A stretch of 64,000 bases of DNA from Desulfurococcales archaeon (GTDB lineage: Archaea > Thermoproteota > Thermoprotei_A > Sulfolobales > NBVN01). Location: the NCBI GenBank assembly GCA_027002995.1, contig JALWZB010000052.1, positions 196 through 64,195 of the forward strand, written 5' to 3'. The stretch's first letter is position 1. Each line of letters opens with the position of its first letter. The position numbers were made by a program, and so were the translations under genes. The notes under the pieces were generated by a model. That model was not told the DNA's origin, did no database searches, and was given only the letters and a program-made list of their open reading frames with translations. Below, in pieces: positions 4,733 to 58,799 of the stretch.

Positions 4733-4870
4733 CCTTCTCGCTCACTCTACGGTATGTGTGTTTGCAGAGTGTTTAAAACTGGCTGGGGGGTAAGGAATAA
4801 GAATTTAAGACTAGTCTAACTTACCTTAGACGGGGGATACGAAACGGGTGCTACTAAGCAAGAATGCGAC

Positions 4871-6976
4871 ATTATCGTAGCGTTAGTCGGAAACCCGAAC
4901 GTCGGCAAATCCACACTATTTAACGTACTTACCGGGGAGACAGCACATGTAGGCAACTGGCCCGGCGTGACGGTCGAGCTGAAGCTGGGTATGCGCAAGT
5001 ACGAGGGCAGGAGGATATGCTTCGTTGACCTCCCTGGAACTTATGGAATCAGCGGCACTAGCCTCGAGGAGGTCGTCGCCCGGGAATTCATTGTTTCCAG
5101 CGAACCAGACGTCGTTATGGTGCTCGTCGACTCCACAGCCCCTGAAAGGACGCTCTACCTGGCGATCCAGGTGTTGGAGTTAACGCCGAACGTGATACTG
5201 GTTTTCACGAAGACTGATGAGGCACACCCGAGGGGAATTCACATACATTACGATAAGTTGGAGGAGTACCTAAGCGTCCCGGTAATCCCCGTCTCCGCGC
5301 TTAAGGGTGAGGGCATTAGGGACCTTCTCGAGGCACTCCTCAACTATAAGTCCAGGATTAAGCGGTCGGAACCCCTCACAATCGATTACGGCCCGCTGGA
5401 ACACTTCATACGTGAAATAGCGTCACTAATTGAGGAGGAGGGAGCCCTTCGCCAGTATCCCTCGAGATGGGTTGCTATTAGGTTGTTAGAGGGCGACATG
5501 CGTATTGAGGATCTGCTGAAGCAGGAAGGGAAGAAAGCCCTACTTAAGCGTGTGTGGAGCATCATCGACTCAGCGAGGAGGGTCCTCGGCGGCGACCTCA
5601 CGGAGCTCGCGATAAGGCAGCGTTTTGCGTTCGTTGATTCCCTGATAAGGAGGGTCGTGGTTAGGACGAAGGTTGAGGGAGGAAGTAGCCTTGAGAAGGT
5701 ACTACGTAGGCCGTTGGCTGGCCTCCTATTCAGTACGGCACTAACGCTGGGTGTCTTCCTGCTCATATTCTCGATAAACACAGGCTTCCCGCTGAACATC
5801 CTGCTTGAGTTGGCTGGGCAGGAGGGCTTAGCAGAGGCGGTGAGTACGTACAGCTTAAGCGGGATAGTCAGCATGGGATTCAACGAGCTCTCATCGCTGG
5901 CAGAGTCTGGGTTAAGTGCTGTGAACGCGCCCCACTGGTTCGTGTCCTTAGTGGCGAACGGCATCATACCGGGTGTTGGGTCTGTGCTCAGCTTCTTCCC
6001 CCTCATACTCATGGTGTTTCTGTTCCTGGCGATGCTTGAGGATAGCGGACTAATGCCTAGGATGGCCGTGGCGTTCCACTCCACCTTATCTAAGTTTGGT
6101 CTTTCCGGGAGGGCTGTTTACCCGTTAGTCATAAGCGTGGGCTGTAACGTGCCGGGCGTCATGACTAGCCGAACATCCCTCGACGATGTTGAGAGGCATG
6201 AGCTAATCTTCTCAGTTCCCTTTATCCCCTGCCAGGCTAGGTTAGTGGTTGGCTTAGCTTTCGCTATGGCTCTCTTCAAGAGCGCGGTCATGCAAGCAGT
6301 TGCCGTTGTATTCATCTATGCGCTAGGCACCGCGGCCGCCTTGCTGACAGCCATTATCATCCGTAGGGCTATCTACGGTATTCGCGAATCGCCTGAACTC
6401 ATAATGGAGTTACCACCCATACATAAGCCTAAGGCTAAGGTGGTGTGGTGGCTCACGTGGGACAACACTAAACACTTCCTCCGTAAGGCCGGGTTGATAA
6501 TATTCTCGCTAAGCATCGTTGTGTGGGCACTCCTCTACACGGGGCCTGAAGGGTACTTGCCTGACGTGTACGGAGAGAACTTCTTTCAGCACAGCTTCGC
6601 GGCAATCATAGGGAATGCTGTGGCCCCTGCCCTCACGCCTTTCGGGCTGAACTACACGCAGGCATGGAAAGTTGGGTTCGCGTTAGTGAATGGTTTCGTT
6701 GCGAAGGAAGTCGTGCTTGACAGCTTGTCCGTCCTGCATGGTGGCGCTAACCCGATAGTAGCCATTAGGGCGTTAGGGCTCAATGTTGCTCAAGGCCTCG
6801 GGATACTGGCGTTCATAACGCTTTATCTGCCCTGCTTAGCTACGCTCGCCGTCATGTATCAGGAGAGCAAGAGTTTAAGGAAGACCCTAATCTCCTTGAT
6901 GTACATGATGGGGTTAGCATACATTATCGCATTACTTGTTTACTACATTACAACCGCCCTACTCACCCTATTGTGA
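4871..6976 (+). CDS. feoB: ferrous iron transporter FeoB; 5' end unresolved
   Basis: P-loop VALVGNPNVGKSTLFN encoded at 4877-4924, then DLPGTYG and TKTD G-motifs and a polytopic membrane domain. The track start GTG 4967 lies downstream of the P-loop, and there is no ATG/GTG/TTG in frame between TAA 4817 and 4967. Confidence 0.85.
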   Translation: MIVALVGNPNVGKSTLFNVLTGETAHVGNWPGVTVELKLGMRKYEGRRICFVDLPGTYGISGTSLEEVVAREFIVSSEPDVVMVLVDSTAPERTLYLAIQVLELTPNVILVFTKTDEAHPRGIHIHYDKLEEYLSVPVIPVSALKGEGIRDLLEALLNYKSRIKRSEPLTIDYGPLEHFIREIASLIEEEGALRQYPSRWVAIRLLEGDMRIEDLLKQEGKKALLKRVWSIIDSARRVLGGDLTELAIRQRFAFVDSLIRRVVVRTKVEGGSSLEKVLRRPLAGLLFSTALTLGVFLLIFSINTGFPLNILLELAGQEGLAEAVSTYSLSGIVSMGFNELSSLAESGLSAVNAPHWFVSLVANGIIPGVGSVLSFFPLILMVFLFLAMLEDSGLMPRMAVAFHSTLSKFGLSGRAVYPLVISVGCNVPGVMTSRTSLDDVERHELIFSVPFIPCQARLVVGLAFAMALFKSAVMQAVAVVFIYALGTAAALLTAIIIRRAIYGIRESPELIMELPPIHKPKAKVVWWLTWDNTKHFLRKAGLIIFSLSIVVWALLYTGPEGYLPDVYGENFFQHSFAAIIGNAVAPALTPFGLNYTQAWKVGFALVNGFVAKEVVLDSLSVLHGGANPIVAIRALGLNVAQGLGILAFITLYLPCLATLAVMYQESKSLRKTLISLMYMMGLAYIIALLVYYITTALLTLL

Positions 6977-7023: not shown

Positions 7024-7031
7024 CTTAAAAG
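7024..7031 (+). promoter_or_regulatory. TATA-box-like element upstream of the aRF1-family gene
   Basis: CTTAAAAG; a start about 26 nt downstream would fall at 7053-7058, next to GTG 7058. Confidence 0.4.
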
Positions 7032-7061
7032 GGCGGCTAGTGAGACTATGAGATAGGGTGA

Positions 7062-8168
7062 TCGGCATTTAGTGATAAGTTCAGGATATCGAAGAGCGAG
7101 CTGAAAAGGCTCCTGAGGGAGCTGAAGAAGTGGAGTGCCCATGCAACCACGCTCCTGAGCCTCTACATACCTCCGGGTAGGCCGATTGCTGACGTAGTTA
7201 ACGTTCTGCGTCAAGAGCTGTCCATAACCGAGAACATAAAGCTGAAAGCAACTAGGAACCGAGTTCAGACAGCGTTGAAGGCAGCCATAGATAGGCTTGT
7301 TAAGATACCGAAGGTCCCTCCGAATGGCTTAGTAATATTTGCGGGAGAGCATGATGAAACTGGTGAGACCATAGCCCTAGTGTTTGAGCCTCCAGAGCCC
7401 ATTAAGGCGTTCTTCTATAGGACCGACAAGTTCTTCCACACGGAGTTCCTTGAGGATATGGTTGCGGAGAACGACGTGTACGGCCTTATAGTAATTGAGA
7501 GAGATGAAGCAACAATAGGTCTGCTTAAAGGCAATGCCATAAGGGTTCTGGACGAGATCGAGGGCTACATACCGGGTAAGCATAGCCGAGGTGGGTGGTC
7601 TCAGAGGAGGTACGAGAGGATCATAGAGGAACTAACTAGGGACTTCTTCAAGAGCGTTGGGGAGAAAGCTACTAACCACTTCCTACCGCTCCTCCAAGAT
7701 GGTAAGCTCAAGGGAGTAATCATTGGAGGTCCCGGCTACACTAAGCTAGACTTCGTTAAGGGCGACTTCCTAGATTACAGACTTAAGCGCTTGGTGCTCC
7801 CCAAGACCATAGATGTGAGTGACCAAGGAGAGCCCGGGCTCAAGGAGCTGGTTATGAGGGCTGAAGACATGATAAAGCAACACATCTACATAAGAACCCA
7901 GAAGGCCCTTGAGGAATTTAACTACCACCTAGCCAAGGACGATGGCCTAGCAATCTACGGTGAGAAGGAAGTTATCGACGCCTTAAACCTCGGCGCTGTT
8001 AAACACATTATAATAACGGAGGATCACCCCAAGTTCGAGGAGATAGTTAAGCTTGCCGAGAAGAAAGGTGCTGAGGTCTACGTGCTCACTGATGAAGTAC
8101 CAGACTATATGTGGATTAAGAAGACGTTCAACGGCTTAGTAGGTGTTCTCAGGTACCAGATCTACTAG
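7062..8168 (+). CDS. prf1: aRF1-family protein (class I release factor homolog) with atypical motifs; 5' end unresolved
   Basis: Frame is open from 7062 (TGA at 7059-7061). Residues upstream of the track start TTG 7275 encode the conserved aRF1 N-domain (LLSLYIPPGRPIADVVNVLRQELSITENIKLKATRN). The middle domain has GKHSRGGWSQRRYERIIEE. No in-frame canonical start before 7275. Confidence 0.8.
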   Translation, partial: SAFSDKFRISKSELKRLLRELKKWSAHATTLLSLYIPPGRPIADVVNVLRQELSITENIKLKATRNRVQTALKAAIDRLVKIPKVPPNGLVIFAGEHDETGETIALVFEPPEPIKAFFYRTDKFFHTEFLEDMVAENDVYGLIVIERDEATIGLLKGNAIRVLDEIEGYIPGKHSRGGWSQRRYERIIEELTRDFFKSVGEKATNHFLPLLQDGKLKGVIIGGPGYTKLDFVKGDFLDYRLKRLVLPKTIDVSDQGEPGLKELVMRAEDMIKQHIYIRTQKALEEFNYHLAKDDGLAIYGEKEVIDALNLGAVKHIIITEDHPKFEEIVKLAEKKGAEVYVLTDEVPDYMWIKKTFNGLVGVLRYQIY

Positions 8169-8291: not shown

Positions 8292-11228
8292 ATGGTCAGC
8301 ACTAAGGACGCAGGTAAGAAGGGAGCTAAGCTAAGGTCACCAATAGTTACCGTGCTAGGACACGTAGATCATGGCAAGTGTCTTCACCCAGACGAGAGGG
8401 TGGTGTTAGCCAATGGTAGGTTAGTCAAGGTAAAGACGCTCTTTGAGGGTGTCGCAGGAGGCAACATCATTAATGCTGGGGATGGATATGAGTTCATTAA
8501 GAGAAAAATTGGGGTGACGACCCTCACCCCTCAAGCACGCGTGAGGCGCGGCAGGACGAGTAAAGTGTGGCGCGTTTGGTATGAAGGGTACCTATACGAG
8601 ATTACCCTAAGTGATGGAAGTAGGGTAAGGGTGACGCCAGAGCATCCGTTCCTGACTCTTGATGGATGGATTAGAGCGGGGGACATTACCGTGGATGACG
8701 CGGTCGCCGTAGCTACGAGCGTACCCAACCCGGAGAACTCGTGGAGCATTCTGGCCCGCATCGCACGCCTAGCGGGGATTAAGGAAGGTTTAGGACGTGT
8801 CGGTAGGGCCGCCTGGCGCCGTGCATTCGAACTCGTGGGCCTCAGGTGCGCTGGCCGGGTAATCGACTCGTCACTTAACGACACCATTGAAGCGGTAGCT
8901 GTCGCTAACGCTACGTCGGAGGTGCTCGCGGCCGCACTAGGGCTTAAGGTGAGTACCTCGGCTAAGCTCGCGGGGTGCGTACTCGCAGCCAGTAAGGCAT
9001 GGGGCGATAGTGTATTCGTGCCTGCCTCAGTCCTTCAAGCCCCGAATACCTTGCTTGGAGACTTCATCCGCGGCTTAGTGAAGGGGTCCGGAATCATAGA
9101 CCCTGAGACGCCTGAGATCCTGATCCCCGTCCCAAGCCTTGAGGCTGGTGTGGAGGTTAAGTATGTCCTAGCCCGCTTAGGCGTGTTCTCCTCCATCACC
9201 GAGTTAAGGACGCACCACTACGTTAGGGTTGCTGGCGTGAAGGACGTTGACTTACTCGCTAGGAAGGCAGGATTGAGAATCGATGTTATTGGTGAGGGTA
9301 GTATTGATGATGGCAGGGTCCTCAAGCTAGGTGACGTGCAGTTCATCAGCGTCAAGTCCATCCGCAGGATCCCGTATAAGGGATACCTTTACGACCTCTC
9401 CGTACCGCCAACGCAGTGTTTCATCGCCAATAACGTTGTAGTGCATAACACCACGCTCCTCGATAAGATACGTGGTACGGCAGTCGTTAAGAAAGAGCCT
9501 GGCGAAATGACCCAGCACGTCGGCGCATCAATGATTCCTGCCTCAGTAATAGAGAAGATCGTTGAGCCGCTCAAGTCAATGTTCCCAATAAAGCTTAAGA
9601 TCCCGGGCCTGCTCTTCATAGACACGCCTGGCCACGAGGCCTTCTCTAACTTAAGGAAGCGCGGAGGAAGCATAGCTGACTTCGCAATACTAGTCATCGA
9701 TGTTATGGAGGGCGTTGAGAAGCAAACCATCGAGAGTATCCAGATACTCATGAGTAGGAAGGTCCCCTTCGTTGTCGCCGCTAACAAGATAGATAGGATC
9801 TACGGGTGGAGGCCTCAGCCCGATCAACCCTTCCTCTTCTCAATGAGGCAGCAGAGCAAGAGGGCTTTAGAAGAGTTGGAACGGAGAATATATACCATCG
9901 CTGGACAGCTCTCTAGCTTAGGTATCCCTGCCGAGAGGTTCGACAGGATCAGGGACTTCACGAAGGCAATAGCGATCGTGCCAGTCTCAGCCAAGACAGG
10001 GGAGGGTATCCCCGAGCTACTTGCCGTCTTAGCCGGCTTGACGCAGAAGTACTTAACGAAGAGGATACTATTCACGGAGGGTCCGGCGAAGGGCGTTGTG
10101 CTGGAGGTTAAGGAAATACCTGGTCTGGGGACGTGCTTAGACGTCGTGATATATGACGGGATCCTGAGGCGTGGCGACATAATAGTCGTGGGCGGAATGA
10201 AGGAACCCATAGTTACTAGGGTTAGGGCCCTCCTCATGCCAAGGCCCCTCGAAGAGATGAGAGCCGCTAGTGAGTCGGCATTCAAGAACGTTGACGAGGT
10301 CGTGGCGGCGGCGGGCGTTAGGGTCAGCGCCCCCGGCCTTGAGGAAGCAATAGCTGGCGCGCCGCTGTACGCAGTGGAGAGCGAGGAGAAGGTTAAGGAG
10401 TATGTTGAGAAGGTGAGAGAGGAAGTAACGCAGGTGAGGTTCTCCAAGGACATTAACGGCGTCATAGTTAAGGCTGATACCCTAGGCACACTTGAGGCTG
10501 TCGTGGGCATGCTTGAGTCCAAAGGCATACCGGTTAGGCTAGCAGACGTAGGTCCCTTAACTAAGAGGGAGGTAATTGAGGCGTCAATAGTTGCGAAGCA
10601 GAACAGGTACTACGGTGTGGCGCTCCTGTTCAATGTCAAGCCACTACCAGACGCCGAGGAACTCGCTAGGAAGGAGGGTGTGCGCATATTCCAAGACTCG
10701 ATAATCTACAGGTTAATCGAGGCGTACGAGAACTGGGTGGCAAAGGAGAAGCAGAGGGAAGAATACTACGAACTCCTCAAAACGGTGTTCCCGGCTAAGT
10801 TCCAGGTGCTTCCCGGGTTCGTGTTCAGACGCAGTGACCCGGCAGTCGTCGGCATACGGGTGCTGGCGGGCGTGATCAGGCCTGGCTACCCGATAATGCG
10901 TGACGACGGAAGACCCCTTGGTAAGATATATCAAATCCAGAGCAAGGGTAAGAACTTAGATGAGGCGAAGGCTGGGAAAGAGGTCGCTATTTCAATTGAG
11001 GGCAACGTCTTAGTGGGTCGCCACTTCGATGAAGGCGACGTCCTCTACACCGACCCCAGCGAGAAGGATTTGGAGACTGTGTTAACTAGGTTCAGGAAGT
11101 ACGTGACTAAGGACATGCTACCCTTGATCGAGGAAATCATTAGGATCAAGAGGAAACGAGATAAGAGGTTCGGGTTACCTATACTCCTCAAGCTGAGGAG
11201 TTTGAAGAAGGAGTTTGAAGGTAAGTGA
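8292..11228 (+). CDS. infB: translation initiation factor aIF5B (IF2 homolog), intein-containing
   Basis: 978-aa ORF; GTPase P-loop GHVDHGK interrupted after Lys29; DTPGHEAF, NKID; extein is 621 aa after intein removal. Confidence 0.95.
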   Translation: MVSTKDAGKKGAKLRSPIVTVLGHVDHGKCLHPDERVVLANGRLVKVKTLFEGVAGGNIINAGDGYEFIKRKIGVTTLTPQARVRRGRTSKVWRVWYEGYLYEITLSDGSRVRVTPEHPFLTLDGWIRAGDITVDDAVAVATSVPNPENSWSILARIARLAGIKEGLGRVGRAAWRRAFELVGLRCAGRVIDSSLNDTIEAVAVANATSEVLAAALGLKVSTSAKLAGCVLAASKAWGDSVFVPASVLQAPNTLLGDFIRGLVKGSGIIDPETPEILIPVPSLEAGVEVKYVLARLGVFSSITELRTHHYVRVAGVKDVDLLARKAGLRIDVIGEGSIDDGRVLKLGDVQFISVKSIRRIPYKGYLYDLSVPPTQCFIANNVVVHNTTLLDKIRGTAVVKKEPGEMTQHVGASMIPASVIEKIVEPLKSMFPIKLKIPGLLFIDTPGHEAFSNLRKRGGSIADFAILVIDVMEGVEKQTIESIQILMSRKVPFVVAANKIDRIYGWRPQPDQPFLFSMRQQSKRALEELERRIYTIAGQLSSLGIPAERFDRIRDFTKAIAIVPVSAKTGEGIPELLAVLAGLTQKYLTKRILFTEGPAKGVVLEVKEIPGLGTCLDVVIYDGILRRGDIIVVGGMKEPIVTRVRALLMPRPLEEMRAASESAFKNVDEVVAAAGVRVSAPGLEEAIAGAPLYAVESEEKVKEYVEKVREEVTQVRFSKDINGVIVKADTLGTLEAVVGMLESKGIPVRLADVGPLTKREVIEASIVAKQNRYYGVALLFNVKPLPDAEELARKEGVRIFQDSIIYRLIEAYENWVAKEKQREEYYELLKTVFPAKFQVLPGFVFRRSDPAVVGIRVLAGVIRPGYPIMRDDGRPLGKIYQIQSKGKNLDEAKAGKEVAISIEGNVLVGRHFDEGDVLYTDPSEKDLETVLTRFRKYVTKDMLPLIEEIIRIKRKRDKRFGLPILLKLRSLKKEFEGK
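8379..9449 (+). mobile_element. intein (357 aa) in the aIF5B P-loop
   Basis: Starts with Cys (CLHPDERVVLANG) right after GHVDHGK, has block B VTPEHPF, ends VVVHN followed by Thr (TTLLDKIRG); central LLGDFIRGLVKGSG resembles a degenerate LAGLIDADG motif. Confidence 0.9.
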
Positions 11229-46286: not shown

Positions 46287-46374
46287 TGGCGCCGGGGGCG
46301 GGATTTGAACCCGCGTGGGCGCGTAGCCCACCGGCTCTCCAGGCCGGCCCCTTGGGCCGCTCGGGCACCCCGGC
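46287..46374 (-). tRNA. tRNA-Ser (anticodon GGA), type II long variable arm, CCA encoded
   Basis: GCCGGGG acceptor pairs with CCCCGGC; anticodon stem CCGGC/GCCGG with loop CUGGAGA; variable arm UGGGCUACGCGCCCACG; T arm CGGGUUCAAAUCCCG. Confidence 0.93.

Positions 46375-58684: not shown

Positions 58685-58799
<115 letters not shown>

What the first reader, a model, noticed from the sequence alone, without database searches (positions are those of the whole stretch)
7062..8168. The release-factor homolog has all three functional signatures altered: NIKL, YxTxxxF and GGW
The alignable motifs read ITENIKLKATRN (NIKS becomes NIKL), FFYRTDKFFHTEF (YxCxxxF becomes YxTxxxF) and GKHSRGGWSQRRYERIIEE. 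The last has GGW where archaeal aRF1 has RGGQSQRRFERL; the codon is TGG at 7596-7598. By established knowledge, the GGQ glutamine is needed for peptidyl-tRNA hydrolysis in class I release factors. The ORF is otherwise intact over about 368 codons and sits next to aIF5B. It is therefore either a neofunctionalised aRF1 paralog (a stop-codon or ribosome binder that cannot hydrolyse, like a rescue or regulatory factor), or the organism's termination factor is highly unusual. This is in tension with the autoregulation idea at its 5' end, and both cannot be settled from this window.
Basis: partly seen in the sequence, partly recalled or inferred. Interest (0 to 1): 0.8.

Follow-up and report, generated by a model that had tools for sequence, protein, structure and literature searches.

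The report
Archaeal release factor with GGW loop
This is the organism's ordinary stop-codon release factor (aRF1), but its "universally conserved" catalytic GGQ loop reads GGW in a whole family-level group of heat-loving archaea, and the gene appears to be switched on by a bacterial-style +1 ribosomal frameshift at a stop codon.

Summary
The motifs are in the sequence exactly as described (NIKL 7233-7244, YRTDKFF 7416-7436, GGW 7590-7598, W = TGG 7596-7598). Two of the three "alterations" are not alterations. NIKL and YxTxxxF occur in Aeropyrum pernix aRF1 (PDB 3AGK) and in all 120 closest homologues, and both are described in the literature.

GGW is real and conserved. It is found in 39 of the 120 best homologues and in 21 GTDB species, including Zestosphaera tikiterensis. 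These form one clade (bootstrap 99/100, Q/W column removed). dN/dS is 0.02-0.12, the same as in GGQ relatives. Q179W is the only column in the protein that separates the clade.

The gene sits next to aIF5B, as the GGQ gene does in the sister lineage, so it is the positional ortholog and not a paralog. A second, unrelated GGW clade exists in a DPANN-like lineage.

The reading frame has no in-frame start codon. A 4-codon leader (GTG ATC GGC ATT TAG) in the -1 frame, conserved in 73 of 81 related loci, implies a prfB-like +1 frameshift.

The most likely reading is a working, autoregulated termination factor that lacks the catalytic glutamine. I could not check whole genomes for a second release factor, and no biochemistry exists.

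The parts
7024..7031 (+). TATA-box-like element CTTAAAAG, about 30 nt upstream of the leader ORF start
   Evidence: An element of this type peaks 42-51 nt upstream of the shift-site stop codon across 73 related loci. Its role as a promoter is inferred, not tested.
7058..7072 (+). Leader mini-ORF in the -1 frame relative to aRF1: GTG ATC GGC ATT TAG (M-I-G-I-stop)
   Evidence: The pattern 'start, 2-3 codons, NTT, stop' is present at the homologous place in 73 of 81 loci.
7067..7073 (+). Putative +1 frameshift site ATT TAG T. The P-site tRNA would slip from AUU to UUU, after which AGU is read.
   Evidence: The aRF1-frame codon over the site is TTT in 73/73 loci, while Phe is TTT only 30% of the time elsewhere in these genes. 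The stop is TAG in 64, TGA in 6 and TAA in 3. Sulfolobaceae have CTT TGA C, identical to the E. coli prfB site. Frameshifting itself is inferred.
7071..8168 (+). aRF1 coding frame after the shift, stop TAG 8166-8168. The predicted product is 369 aa: MIGI + SDKFRISKSEL...
7104..7463 (+). N (stop-codon recognition) domain, Pfam eRF1_1, residues 15-134
   Evidence: E = 1.7e-13; AlphaFold model.
7233..7244 (+). NIKL (AAC ATA AAG CTG), the crenarchaeal form of the NIKS loop
   Evidence: PMC3467058 states 'NIKL for A. pernix aRF1'.
7416..7436 (+). YRTDKFF, the YxTxxxF form of the YxCxxxF motif
   Evidence: PMC2613156 reports YXTXXXF in Sulfolobus, Caldivirga and Hyperthermus.
7479..7877 (+). M (catalytic) domain, Pfam eRF1_2, residues 140-272
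   Evidence: E = 4.7e-42.
7590..7598 (+). [quoted passage not shown]
   Evidence: TGG is present in all 22 GGW loci while the flanking synonymous sites vary. GGQ relatives use CAG (36) or CAA (23).
7887..8162 (+). C domain (binds aEF1-alpha), Pfam eRF1_3, residues 276-367. It contains L290, W351 and GVLRY.
   Evidence: contact residues are taken from PMC3467058.

Best explanation
The gene encodes the organism's orthologous, and probably only, class-I translation termination factor aRF1.

Expression (inferred). A transcript starts just upstream of a 4-codon leader ORF (GTG ATC GGC ATT TAG). When aRF1 is scarce, termination at that UAG is slow. The peptidyl-tRNA-Ile then slips from AUU to UUU (+1) and the ribosome reads on into the aRF1 frame. 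This is the same feedback logic as bacterial prfB.

Decoding (shown by sequence). The decoding motifs NIKL and YxTxxxF are the normal crenarchaeal versions.

The unusual part (shown). The catalytic-loop glutamine was replaced by tryptophan once, in the ancestor of a family-level clade (Zestosphaera and relatives). It has been kept under strong purifying selection, with no other clade-specific change in the protein.

Mechanism (inferred). GGW still supports peptidyl-tRNA hydrolysis. The two glycines keep the backbone geometry. The main-chain NH of residue 3 and the peptidyl transferase centre do the chemistry. The indole ring supplies the packing against the peptidyl transferase centre that N5-methyl-glutamine normally supplies. 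Any loss of rate would be buffered automatically by the frameshift feedback, which raises aRF1 synthesis when termination is slow.
For: Identity as aRF1:
- TIGR03676 scores 431.5 bits against a cut-off of 234.7.
- All three eRF1 Pfam domains are present.
- The match to A. pernix aRF1 3AGK has E = 1e-132 over its full length.
- The AlphaFold model has pLDDT 87 and its best PDB match is 3AGK, TM 0.77-0.82.

Lineage-normal motifs.

GGW is fixed, old and selected:
- 39 of 120 best homologues have it.
- 21 GTDB species have it, including Z. tikiterensis NZ3.
- The clade is monophyletic, 99/100 bootstrap with the Q/W column removed.
- Pairwise identity within the clade goes down to 59%.
- dN/dS is 0.02-0.12, against 0-0.07 in GGQ relatives.
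- There is no rate acceleration: distance to the outgroup is 0.43, against 0.41 for the sister group.
- Q179W is the only column in the whole protein that discriminates the clade.
- Codons flanking TGG vary freely.

Orthology:
- aRF1 is directly followed by aIF5B both in GGW loci and in sister GGQ loci L021, L023, L029 and L041.
- All 80 best loci come from different assemblies.
- There is no second aRF1 in the 64-kb window or in the 10-kb flanks.
- The gene lies in a core translation neighbourhood.

The product still acts at stop codons:
- The stop-codon-dependent shift site is kept in about 17 of 22 GGW species.
- All three stop codons end ORFs in the window.

Convergence: an unrelated DPANN-like lineage has a conserved GGW clade. 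P0157 and its 7 closest relatives are all GGW, with intact NIKS and YxCxxxF.

Chemistry: the glutamine side chain is reported to have 'a packing role' and its methylation adds van der Waals contacts (PMC5799190). The backbone amide is described as catalytic (PMC5378476). From my own knowledge, not re-read here: Shaw & Green 2007, Santos et al. 2013 and Seit-Nebi et al. 2001 report that Gln substitutions other than Pro keep partial release activity in vitro.
Against: - No biochemical data exist for a Trp at this position.
- The literature treats the glutamine as universally conserved and as the mark of catalytic competence (PMC2613156, PMC6514570).
- From my own knowledge, GGQ mutants are lethal or dominant-negative in yeast and E. 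coli.
- Trp is far bulkier than Gln and cannot hydrogen-bond a water molecule the way the Gln carbonyl is proposed to (PMC5799190).
- Whole genomes of the GGW clade could not be searched. A divergent second release factor or another peptidyl-tRNA hydrolase is therefore not excluded.
- Frameshifting is inferred from comparative sequence only.
- Three GGW species have an in-frame GTG instead of the leader ORF, and two (L017, L020) have an arrangement I cannot explain.
Confidence: 0.65

Rival explanations
1. The GGW protein binds stop codons in the A site but cannot hydrolyse peptidyl-tRNA. Release would be carried out by a second, undetected factor: a divergent aRF1 copy, an aVLRF1-like protein or some other hydrolase. 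The GGW protein would then act as a decoding, regulatory or rescue factor in the manner of Pelota or Balon.
For: - The glutamine is the accepted criterion for catalytic competence in the eRF1 superfamily (PMC6514570).
- Members that lack it, such as Dom34/Pelota, Balon and most baeRF1 families, are non-catalytic.
- Whole genomes were not searched, and the genome scan was truncated.
Against: - The gene is the positional ortholog of the GGQ gene in sister lineages, next to aIF5B, so it is not an extra copy.
- No genome among the 80 best loci has two copies.
- Non-catalytic relatives have lost the whole loop and the NIKS and YxCxxxF motifs. Here every other residue of the loop (KHS[KR]GG-SQRR) and both decoding motifs are invariant, and only one column differs.
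- Selection and evolutionary rate are indistinguishable from GGQ relatives.
- Pelota and Balon models score far below their cut-offs: 78 against 177.65, and 24.5 against 320.
- The stop-codon feedback site is retained.
Confidence: 0.15
2. The gene is decaying (a pseudogene), or TGG and the missing start codon are sequencing or assembly errors of this one genome.
For: There is no in-frame start codon for 213 nt, and a catalytic residue is changed.
Against: - Both features recur in many independent assemblies from different laboratories and habitats.
- dN/dS is 0.02-0.12.
- The frame is intact in all 22 GGW loci.
- CAG or CAA to TGG needs 2-3 substitutions.
- The 'missing start' is a conserved leader ORF plus shift site in 73 of 81 loci.
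Confidence: 0.01
3. The TGG codon is not expressed as tryptophan. RNA editing or site-specific miscoding would restore glutamine, so the protein would be a normal GGQ factor.
For: None directly. The only motive is the extreme conservation of Gln elsewhere.
Against: - TGG encodes conserved tryptophans elsewhere in the same protein: W24 in LKKW, and W351, which is invariant across all 39 aligned sequences.
- No mechanism is known in archaea that would turn UGG into CAG or CAA.
- An independent DPANN-like clade shows the same codon change.
Confidence: 0.02
4. Translation of aRF1 starts conventionally at a non-canonical in-frame codon, for example ATA 7086-7088, which aligns with the annotated Met/Val of 'MSKEEL' in relatives. 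The conserved 5' motif would then be a promoter or leader element and not a frameshift site.
For: - Gene callers place starts at this position in several relatives (P0003, P0004, P0024: MSKEEL...).
- The neighbouring feoB also lacks a canonical in-frame start, so unusual initiation may occur in this organism.
Against: - The codon at that position is GTT, GTC or GTA in L004, L005 and L012, which are not initiators.
- 49 loci have no in-frame start upstream of the shift site, and several have none before the LSLYIPP anchor at all.
- The conserved helix (ISKSELKRLL) and the 'FSEY' block lie upstream of most alternative starts.
- The constraint is at nucleotide level: TTT in 73/73 loci and AGY in 62, with a stop codon always in the -1 frame and a start codon 3-4 codons before it.
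Confidence: 0.12

Closest known systems
Aeropyrum pernix aRF1 (PDB 3AGK, 3VMF), the canonical crenarchaeal class-I release factor
   Same: - Full-length homology: E = 1e-132, about 60% identity.
- Same three domains, and the same NIKL and YxTxxxF motifs.
- Same loop context: GKHxxGG-SQRRYERIIE.
- Same aEF1-alpha contact residues (L293 and W354, equivalent to L290 and W351 here).
- The predicted fold matches at TM 0.77-0.82.
   Different: - A. pernix has GGQ; this protein has GGW.
- A. pernix and its relatives (Acidilobaceae, Pyrodictiaceae loci L068, L070, L072) have an ordinary in-frame start and no leader or shift site.
Bacterial prfB (RF2) autoregulatory +1 programmed frameshift
   Same: - A release-factor gene is interrupted near its 5' end by an in-frame stop codon.
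- The shift heptamer is NUU-stop-N. Sulfolobaceae aRF1 genes read CTT TGA C, identical to E. coli.
- The base after the stop is mostly C.
- A purine-rich GGTG/GAGG element lies just upstream.
- The logic is that low release-factor activity gives more frameshifting and therefore more release factor.
   Different: - The proteins are unrelated (RF2 versus aRF1).
- The leader ORF is only 3-4 codons, against about 25.
- The stop is mostly UAG, although aRF1 reads all three stop codons.
- The feature has not been shown experimentally and is described in the literature as absent from archaea (PMC3521657).
Mimivirus R726 and Megavirus mg280 eRF1-like release factors
   Same: An eRF1/aRF1-type gene whose expression needs recoding at internal stop codons, proposed to be autoregulatory (PMC3521657).
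   Different: - These are viral genes.
- They need one frameshift plus one readthrough, located in the body of the gene.
- They keep GGQ, NIKS and YxCxxxF.
Pelota/Dom34 and Balon, eRF1-superfamily members without the catalytic glutamine
   Same: They share the superfamily fold, bind in the A site and lack Gln at the loop tip.
   Different: - They lack the NIKS and YxCxxxF motifs and the conserved GG-loop altogether, and they are separate paralogous families.
- The window protein fails their models: 78 against 177.65 bits, and 24.5 against 320.
- It differs from true aRF1 at a single residue.
Engineered GGQ mutants (eRF1 AAQ, RF GGA/GGP, human eRF1 Q185 variants)
   Same: The change is in the same tripeptide. 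AAQ proteins are used as hydrolysis-dead traps in cryo-EM (PDB 5LZV and 3JAG appear).
   Different: - Dead mutants change the glycines. Here both glycines are kept and only the third residue changes.
- This variant is natural, fixed and selected.
- No report of a Trp substitution was found.

Membership tests
aRF1/eRF1 class-I release factor (NCBIfam TIGR03676; Pfam PF03463, PF03464, PF03465) | Full-length match to the family's equivalog model above its curated cut-off | tested here: met
   431.5 bits against a cut-off of 234.7.
aRF1/eRF1 class-I release factor | Three-domain N/M/C architecture and fold | tested here: met
   eRF1_1, eRF1_2 and eRF1_3 are all above their cut-offs. The AlphaFold model has pLDDT 87.2. 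The best PDB matches are aRF1 3AGK/3VMF, followed by eRF1 structures.
aRF1/eRF1 class-I release factor | NIKS loop for stop-codon recognition | tested here: met
   Present as NIKL at 7233-7244. This is the form found in A. pernix aRF1 and in all close homologues. PMC2613156 notes that the S is sometimes L, N or D.
aRF1/eRF1 class-I release factor | YxCxxxF motif | tested here: met
   Present as YRTDKFF (YxTxxxF), the documented crenarchaeal variant.
aRF1/eRF1 class-I release factor | [quoted passage not shown] | tested here: not met
   The tripeptide is GGW (GGT GGG TGG, 7590-7598), and it is conserved in 21 species. The protein is therefore an aRF1 by descent (an ortholog) but fails this defining motif. 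I file it as a variant and not as a standard member.
aRF1/eRF1 class-I release factor | C-domain surface that binds aEF1-alpha, and a GILRY-like C-terminus | tested here: met
   L290, W351 and GVLRY are conserved, and W351 is invariant in A1. Contact residues are from PMC3467058. K290 of A. pernix is N287 here.
aRF1/eRF1 class-I release factor | Stop-codon-dependent peptidyl-tRNA hydrolysis on the ribosome | not testable with these tools
   This needs an in vitro release assay.
aRF1/eRF1 class-I release factor | Single-copy, vertically inherited gene (ortholog, not paralog) | tested here: inconclusive
   Positional orthology with sister GGQ genes is met. No double hits were found among 80 loci, the window or the flanks. 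Whole genomes were not searched, and the scan was truncated.
Pelota/Dom34 | Match to TIGR00111 above its cut-off; Sm-like N domain; no NIKS or GGQ loops | tested here: not met
   78 bits against a cut-off of 177.65, covering the M and C domains only. The NIKL and GG-loop are present.
Balon / Rv2629-type hibernation factors and baeRF1 | Match to NF052289 or the baeRF models above their cut-offs | tested here: not met
   NF052289 scores 24.5 against a cut-off of 320. The baeRF family 10 and acVLRF1 Pfam hits lie under the far stronger eRF1_2 hit.
prfB-type autoregulatory +1 frameshift (mechanism, not homology) | A short upstream ORF in the -1 frame ending in NUU-stop, with the main frame open from the shift site and no in-frame start upstream | tested here: met
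   In the window: GTG ATC GGC ATT TAG T at 7058-7073. The pattern is present in 73 of 81 loci, and 49 of these have no in-frame start upstream.
prfB-type autoregulatory +1 frameshift | Conservation at nucleotide level beyond what the protein requires | tested here: met
   TTT in 73/73 loci against 30% TTT elsewhere. AGY in all 62 loci where the next codon encodes Ser, against 51% elsewhere. dS between these lineages is saturated.
prfB-type autoregulatory +1 frameshift | Shine-Dalgarno-like stimulator a few nucleotides upstream of the slippery codon | tested here: inconclusive
   GGTG(AT) or GAGGG lies 3-6 nt upstream in most loci. No 16S rRNA of these organisms was available to check complementarity. 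The element overlaps the leader start codon.
prfB-type autoregulatory +1 frameshift | A trans-frame protein product, and a response of frameshifting to release-factor level | not testable with these tools
   This needs proteomics, ribosome profiling or reporter assays.

The most novel reading that the evidence does not exclude
The catalytic glutamine of class-I release factors, and with it its N5-methylation, is dispensable in living cells. GGW would be a natural alternative catalytic loop that evolved at least twice: once in a Zestosphaera-type family of Thermoprotei and once in a DPANN-like lineage, each serving as the sole termination factor. In addition, aRF1 of most Sulfolobales and Desulfurococcales would be autoregulated by a prfB-like +1 frameshift at a 3-4-codon leader ORF. 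This would be the first such case in a cellular non-bacterial release factor, and the feedback may be what allowed the Gln-to-Trp change to be tolerated.
Probability: 0.55. Interest if true: 0.88.

Novelty: new variant of a known kind. Interest (0 to 1): 0.8.

Why it matters
GGQ is the textbook example of a motif conserved in every class-I release factor of all three domains. Its glutamine is methylated by dedicated enzymes in bacteria, archaea and eukaryotes. Whether its side chain takes part in catalysis or only packs the active site has been argued for two decades from mutants that cells do not tolerate.

A cultured organism (Zestosphaera tikiterensis) and about 20 related species appear to live with tryptophan at that position. 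That makes the question directly testable: does release work, at what rate, with what nucleophile specificity, and what becomes of the Mtq2 methyltransferase?

It also warns against using "has Q / lacks Q" as the sole criterion for calling eRF1-superfamily proteins active or inactive.

The 5' leader and shift site, if real, show that release-factor autoregulation by +1 frameshifting arose independently in archaea. They also mean that aRF1 genes of model Sulfolobaceae are mis-annotated at their N-termini.

Tried and rejected
- **Pseudogene or sequencing error.** Rejected by conservation in many assemblies and by dN/dS.
- **Recent paralog.** Rejected because synteny with aIF5B is shared with sister GGQ genes, which come from different assemblies.
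- **Compensatory changes within aRF1.** I searched for them and found none. Q179W is the only discriminating column.
- **Faster evolution after the change.** Not seen.
- **In-frame non-canonical start at ATA 7086.** The homologous codon is GTT, GTC or GTA in other species.
- **Other recoding routes.** A frameshift or readthrough from ATG 7048 (ATG AGA TAG) or from GTG 7072 does not lead into the aRF1 frame through any plausible slip.
- **Known RNA family or stable structure at the 5' end.** No Rfam match at E <= 1, and the fold z-score is -1.07.
- **GGF as a second conserved variant.** P0172 is a lone sequence among 119 GGQ Nanohaloarchaea relatives, so I do not count it as a clade.
- **Literature on GGW.** No paper links GGW with aRF1. 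None describes an archaeal aRF1 frameshift.
- **Papers not held in the library.** Seit-Nebi 2001, Shaw & Green 2007 and Korostelev 2011 could not be read. What I say about them rests on my own knowledge.
- **Second release factor in complete genomes.** This could not be tested.
Full report
**1. Observation**

- NIKL is at residues 58-61 (nt 7233-7244).
- YRTDKFF is at residues 119-125 (nt 7416-7436).
- G177-G178-W179 is encoded by GGT GGG TGG at nt 7590-7598.
- The C-terminus reads GVLRYQIY and the stop is TAG 8166-8168.

The protein is unmistakably an aRF1.
- All three eRF1 Pfam domains are present.
- The NCBIfam aRF-1 equivalog scores 431.5 bits against a cut-off of 234.7, while Pelota scores 78 against 177.65.
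- The full-length match to Aeropyrum pernix aRF1 (3AGK) has E = 1e-132.
- An AlphaFold model (pLDDT 87.2) is closest to 3AGK and 3VMF (TM 0.77-0.82). It places GGW in the loop before the long helix 181-212.

The frame is open for 368 codons, but it has no ATG, GTG or TTG between the TGA at 7059-7061 and TTG 7275.

**2. Two of the three "altered signatures" are the lineage norm**

The HMMER alignment to A. pernix aRF1 shows ITDNIKLKRTR and YYRTDKRF in that solved protein. All of the 120 closest homologues that cover these regions have NIKL and YRTDK.

The literature says the same.
- PMC3467058 writes "NIKL for A. pernix aRF1".
- PMC2613156 says the S of NIKS is "sometimes present as L, N or D". 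It also reports YXTXXXF in Sulfolobus, Caldivirga and Hyperthermus.

Only GGW departs from the family. A. pernix and Sulfolobus acidocaldarius both read GGQSQRR.

**3. GGW is a fixed, old, selected character of a clade**
- Among the 120 best database homologues, 39 have GGW, 80 have GGQ and one has GGK.
- A scan of one genome per GTDB species returned 80 loci. Of these, 21 species carry GGW. They include Zestosphaera tikiterensis NZ3, Zestosphaera sp., and MAGs labelled Desulfurococcales, Desulfurococcaceae or Sulfolobales, from both marine vents and terrestrial hot springs.
- L001 (WAOL01000008.1) is 99% identical to the window.
- The GGW sequences form one clade in neighbour-joining trees. 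Support is 99/100 bootstrap after the Q/W column is removed.
- Pairwise identity within the clade goes down to 59%.
- The codon is TGG in all 22 loci, while the neighbouring Gly, Ser, Gln and Arg codons vary freely. GGQ relatives use CAG or CAA, so at least two substitutions were needed.
- dN/dS within the clade is 0.02-0.12, indistinguishable from GGQ relatives at 0-0.07.
- There is no rate acceleration relative to the sister group.
- Position 179 is the only alignment column in the whole protein that separates the clade from the 59 GGQ species. The rest of the loop, KHS[KR]GG-SQRR[YF][DE]RI, is unchanged.

**4. Ortholog, not paralog**

In the window and in 11 other GGW loci, aRF1 is directly followed by aIF5B. 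The same adjacency is found in the nearest GGQ loci (L021, L023, L029, L041), which come from other assemblies. The sister GGQ clade is therefore the same gene in other organisms, not a second copy.
- All 80 best loci come from different assemblies.
- The 64-kb window has no other eRF1-family gene.
- The 10-kb flanks of the 81 loci hold only one Pelota-like hit, in L078.
- The window is core chromosome: ArgRS, Nre, FeoB, aRF1, aIF5B, NDK, L7Ae, GluRS and a ribosomal-protein/RpoD cluster.

What I could not do is search complete genomes. A divergent second factor is therefore not excluded.

**5. The 5' end: a prfB-like +1 frameshift**

This feature explains the missing start codon and bears on function.

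The site.
- In the -1 frame the window reads GTG(7058) ATC GGC ATT TAG(7070-72).
- A +1 slip of the P-site tRNA from AUU to UUU puts AGU (7071-73) in the A site and continues as S-D-K-F-R-I-S-K-S-E-L.
- The predicted product is 369 aa, MIGISDKFRISKSEL....

Conservation.
- The arrangement "start codon, 2-3 codons, NTT, stop" sits in the -1 frame at a fixed distance from the LSLYIPP anchor in 73 of 81 loci.
- 49 of those loci have no in-frame start upstream.
- Sulfolobaceae (Metallosphaera, Acidianus, Stygiolobus, Ca. Aramenus) read ATG AGT CTT TGA C, the very heptamer of E. coli prfB.
- Desulfurococcus, Thermogladius and Staphylothermus read ATG GGT TTT TAG C.
- The constraint is on nucleotides. 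The aRF1-frame codon over the site is TTT in 73/73 loci, against 30% TTT elsewhere in these genes. The next codon is AGY in all 62 loci where it encodes Ser, against 51% elsewhere. The stop is TAG in 64, TGA in 6 and TAA in 3. The base after the stop is C in 51 loci.
- A TATA-like element peaks 42-51 nt upstream of the stop (CTTAAAAG at 7024-7031 in the window). This places the leader start at or near the 5' end of the transcript.
- Pyrodictiaceae, Acidilobaceae and A. pernix have an ordinary in-frame start and no such site.

Alternatives and literature.
- The alternative of an in-frame non-canonical start at ATA 7086 fails in species where that codon is GTT, GTC or GTA.
- No Rfam family and no notable RNA structure is present.
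- The 2016 recoding review has no archaeal release-factor case.
- My library searches found none.

In the GGW clade, 16 species have the canonical site and one (L008) has TAT TAG. Three (L010, L012, L013) have an in-frame GTG instead. Two (L017, L020) are unexplained. A device that senses termination at a stop codon has thus been kept for the GGW protein. This argues that the protein still works at stop codons.

**6. How it most likely works**

Shown: identity, orthology, fixation and selection of GGW, intact decoding and aEF1-alpha-binding motifs, and the conserved leader and shift site.

Inferred: GGW still promotes hydrolysis. The basis for this inference is as follows.
- The glycines, which need glycine-only backbone angles, are intact.
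- The glutamine's main-chain amide is regarded as the catalytic group (PMC5378476).
- Its side chain is described as having "a packing role", and methylation adds van der Waals contacts with U2506, A2451 and A2452 (PMC5799190).
- From my own knowledge: in vitro, Gln substitutions other than proline retain partial activity in RF1/RF2 and human eRF1 (Shaw & Green 2007; Santos et al. 2013; Seit-Nebi et al. 2001). These papers were not held in the library.

A large hydrophobic side chain could fill the pocket without methylation. If release is slower, the frameshift feedback would raise aRF1 synthesis automatically. This may be why the change could be fixed; that last point is speculation.

The archaeal Mtq2 methyltransferase, reported in all archaeal phyla and shown to methylate Haloferax aRF1 (PMC6144793), would have no aRF1 substrate here. 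That is a testable prediction.

**7. Wider survey**

A profile search of 1.84 billion 50%-identity representatives gave 150 aRF1-like representatives. At the motif position they read:

| Motif | Representatives |
|---|---|
| GGQ | 123 |
| GGW | 12 |
| GGF | 5 |
| GGM | 4 |
| GGE | 2 |
| GGA | 1 |

- The non-Q representatives are scattered among GGQ neighbours and keep NIKS, YxCxxxF and the GILRY-like end.
- Most are singletons.
- One GGF case proved to be a lone variant among 119 GGQ relatives.
- One GGW case is a real second clade. P0157 and its seven closest relatives (60-66% identity) are all GGW, and the next relatives (50% identity or less, Diapherotrites-like) are all GGQ.
- P0157 lies among housekeeping genes on a 43-kb contig of MAG GCA_003558235.1.

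Gln-to-Trp has therefore been fixed at least twice independently. This favours functional equivalence over accident.

**8. Comparison, novelty and verdict**

By descent this is an aRF1. By the strict motif definition it fails GGQ, so I file it as a new variant of a known kind.
- It works like aRF1 for decoding and delivery.
- It works like prfB for regulation.
- It differs from Pelota and Balon, which lost the whole loop and the decoding motifs.

I found no publication on GGW release factors.

The remaining uncertainty is whether these genomes hold another hydrolase and whether GGW is catalytically competent. Both can be settled with simple experiments.

Scores: interest 0.8; confidence 0.65 that this is a working, sole termination factor.

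Noticed in passing
window 7024-7073; loci L001-L080, 82-103 nt upstream of the LSLYIPP codons: A conserved 3-4-codon leader ORF in the -1 frame ends in NTT-stop (window: GTG ATC GGC ATT TAG T; Sulfolobaceae: ATG AGT CTT TGA C, identical to the E. coli prfB site). It is present in 73 of 81 Sulfolobales and Desulfurococcales aRF1 loci and has a TATA-like box about 30-38 nt upstream. It implies a prfB-like autoregulatory +1 frameshift in archaeal aRF1, which the literature I could read describes as absent from archaea.
   Followed up: yes
window 4820-4967 (feoB 5' end); L001, L002: feoB also lacks a canonical in-frame start. Its conserved N-terminus and P-loop (DIIVALVGNPNVGKS) lie in a 147-nt start-less open stretch. 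The only nearby start is ATG 4864-4866 in the -1 frame, one codon before the conserved Asp (ATG CGA C; L001: GTG TGA C; L002: ATG CGA T). Relatives L003, L005, L007 and L008 have ordinary in-frame starts. aRF1 and feoB are the only two of 56 long ORFs in the window with such stretches.
   Followed up: partly
proteins P0157, P0271-P0277; locus L081 10001-11197: There is a second, independent GGW clade of aRF1 in a DPANN-like 'archaeon' lineage (MAG GCA_003558235.1). Its NIKS and YxCxxxF motifs are intact and it has a normal ATG start. The nearest relatives at 50% identity or less all have GGQ.
   Followed up: yes
representative proteins P0121-P0269: Other aRF1-like representatives carry GGF, GGM, GGE or GGA at the GGQ position, scattered over the tree. 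Most are singletons. The one GGF case I checked (P0172, Nanohaloarchaea-like) is a lone variant. P0049 is a single GGK sequence among near-identical GGQ sequences.
   Followed up: partly
representative proteins such as P0171, P0174, P0181, P0184, P0207 (500-1187 aa): About 45 of the 150 aRF1 representatives appear to carry an intein inserted directly after the third residue of the motif (GGQ|C..., and also GGW|C, GGF|C and GGM|C). This is inferred from their length, the split of the profile match at position 171/172 and the Cys that follows.
   Followed up: partly
window 8292-11228 (+): The aIF5B gene next to aRF1 contains an intein in its GTPase domain (Pfam Intein_splicing, residues 82-386; CLHPDERVV...VVVHN). 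Several related loci have aIF5B at a shorter distance from aRF1, which suggests that the intein is present in some and absent in others.
   Followed up: partly
loci L010, L012, L013; L017, L020; L008: There are exceptions at the aRF1 5' end within the GGW clade. Three species have an in-frame GTG four codons before TTT AGY, so the frameshift is apparently replaced by normal initiation. Two Zestosphaera sp. MAGs have one extra nucleotide, which puts the GTG in the +1 frame. One species has TAT TAG instead of NTT TAG.
   Followed up: partly
window 58686-58796 (+) and 46287-46374 (-): Rfam calls a 111-nt tRNA at 58686-58796 that ARAGORN does not report, so it is probably intron-containing. tRNA-Ser(GGA) lies at 46287-46374.
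   Followed up: no
window 7070-7078: In this strain the shift-site stop is followed in the leader frame by two more stops (TAG TGA TAA), so all three stop codons occur in tandem. The 99%-identical L001 has TAG CGA TAA, so the triple stop is not conserved.
   Followed up: partly
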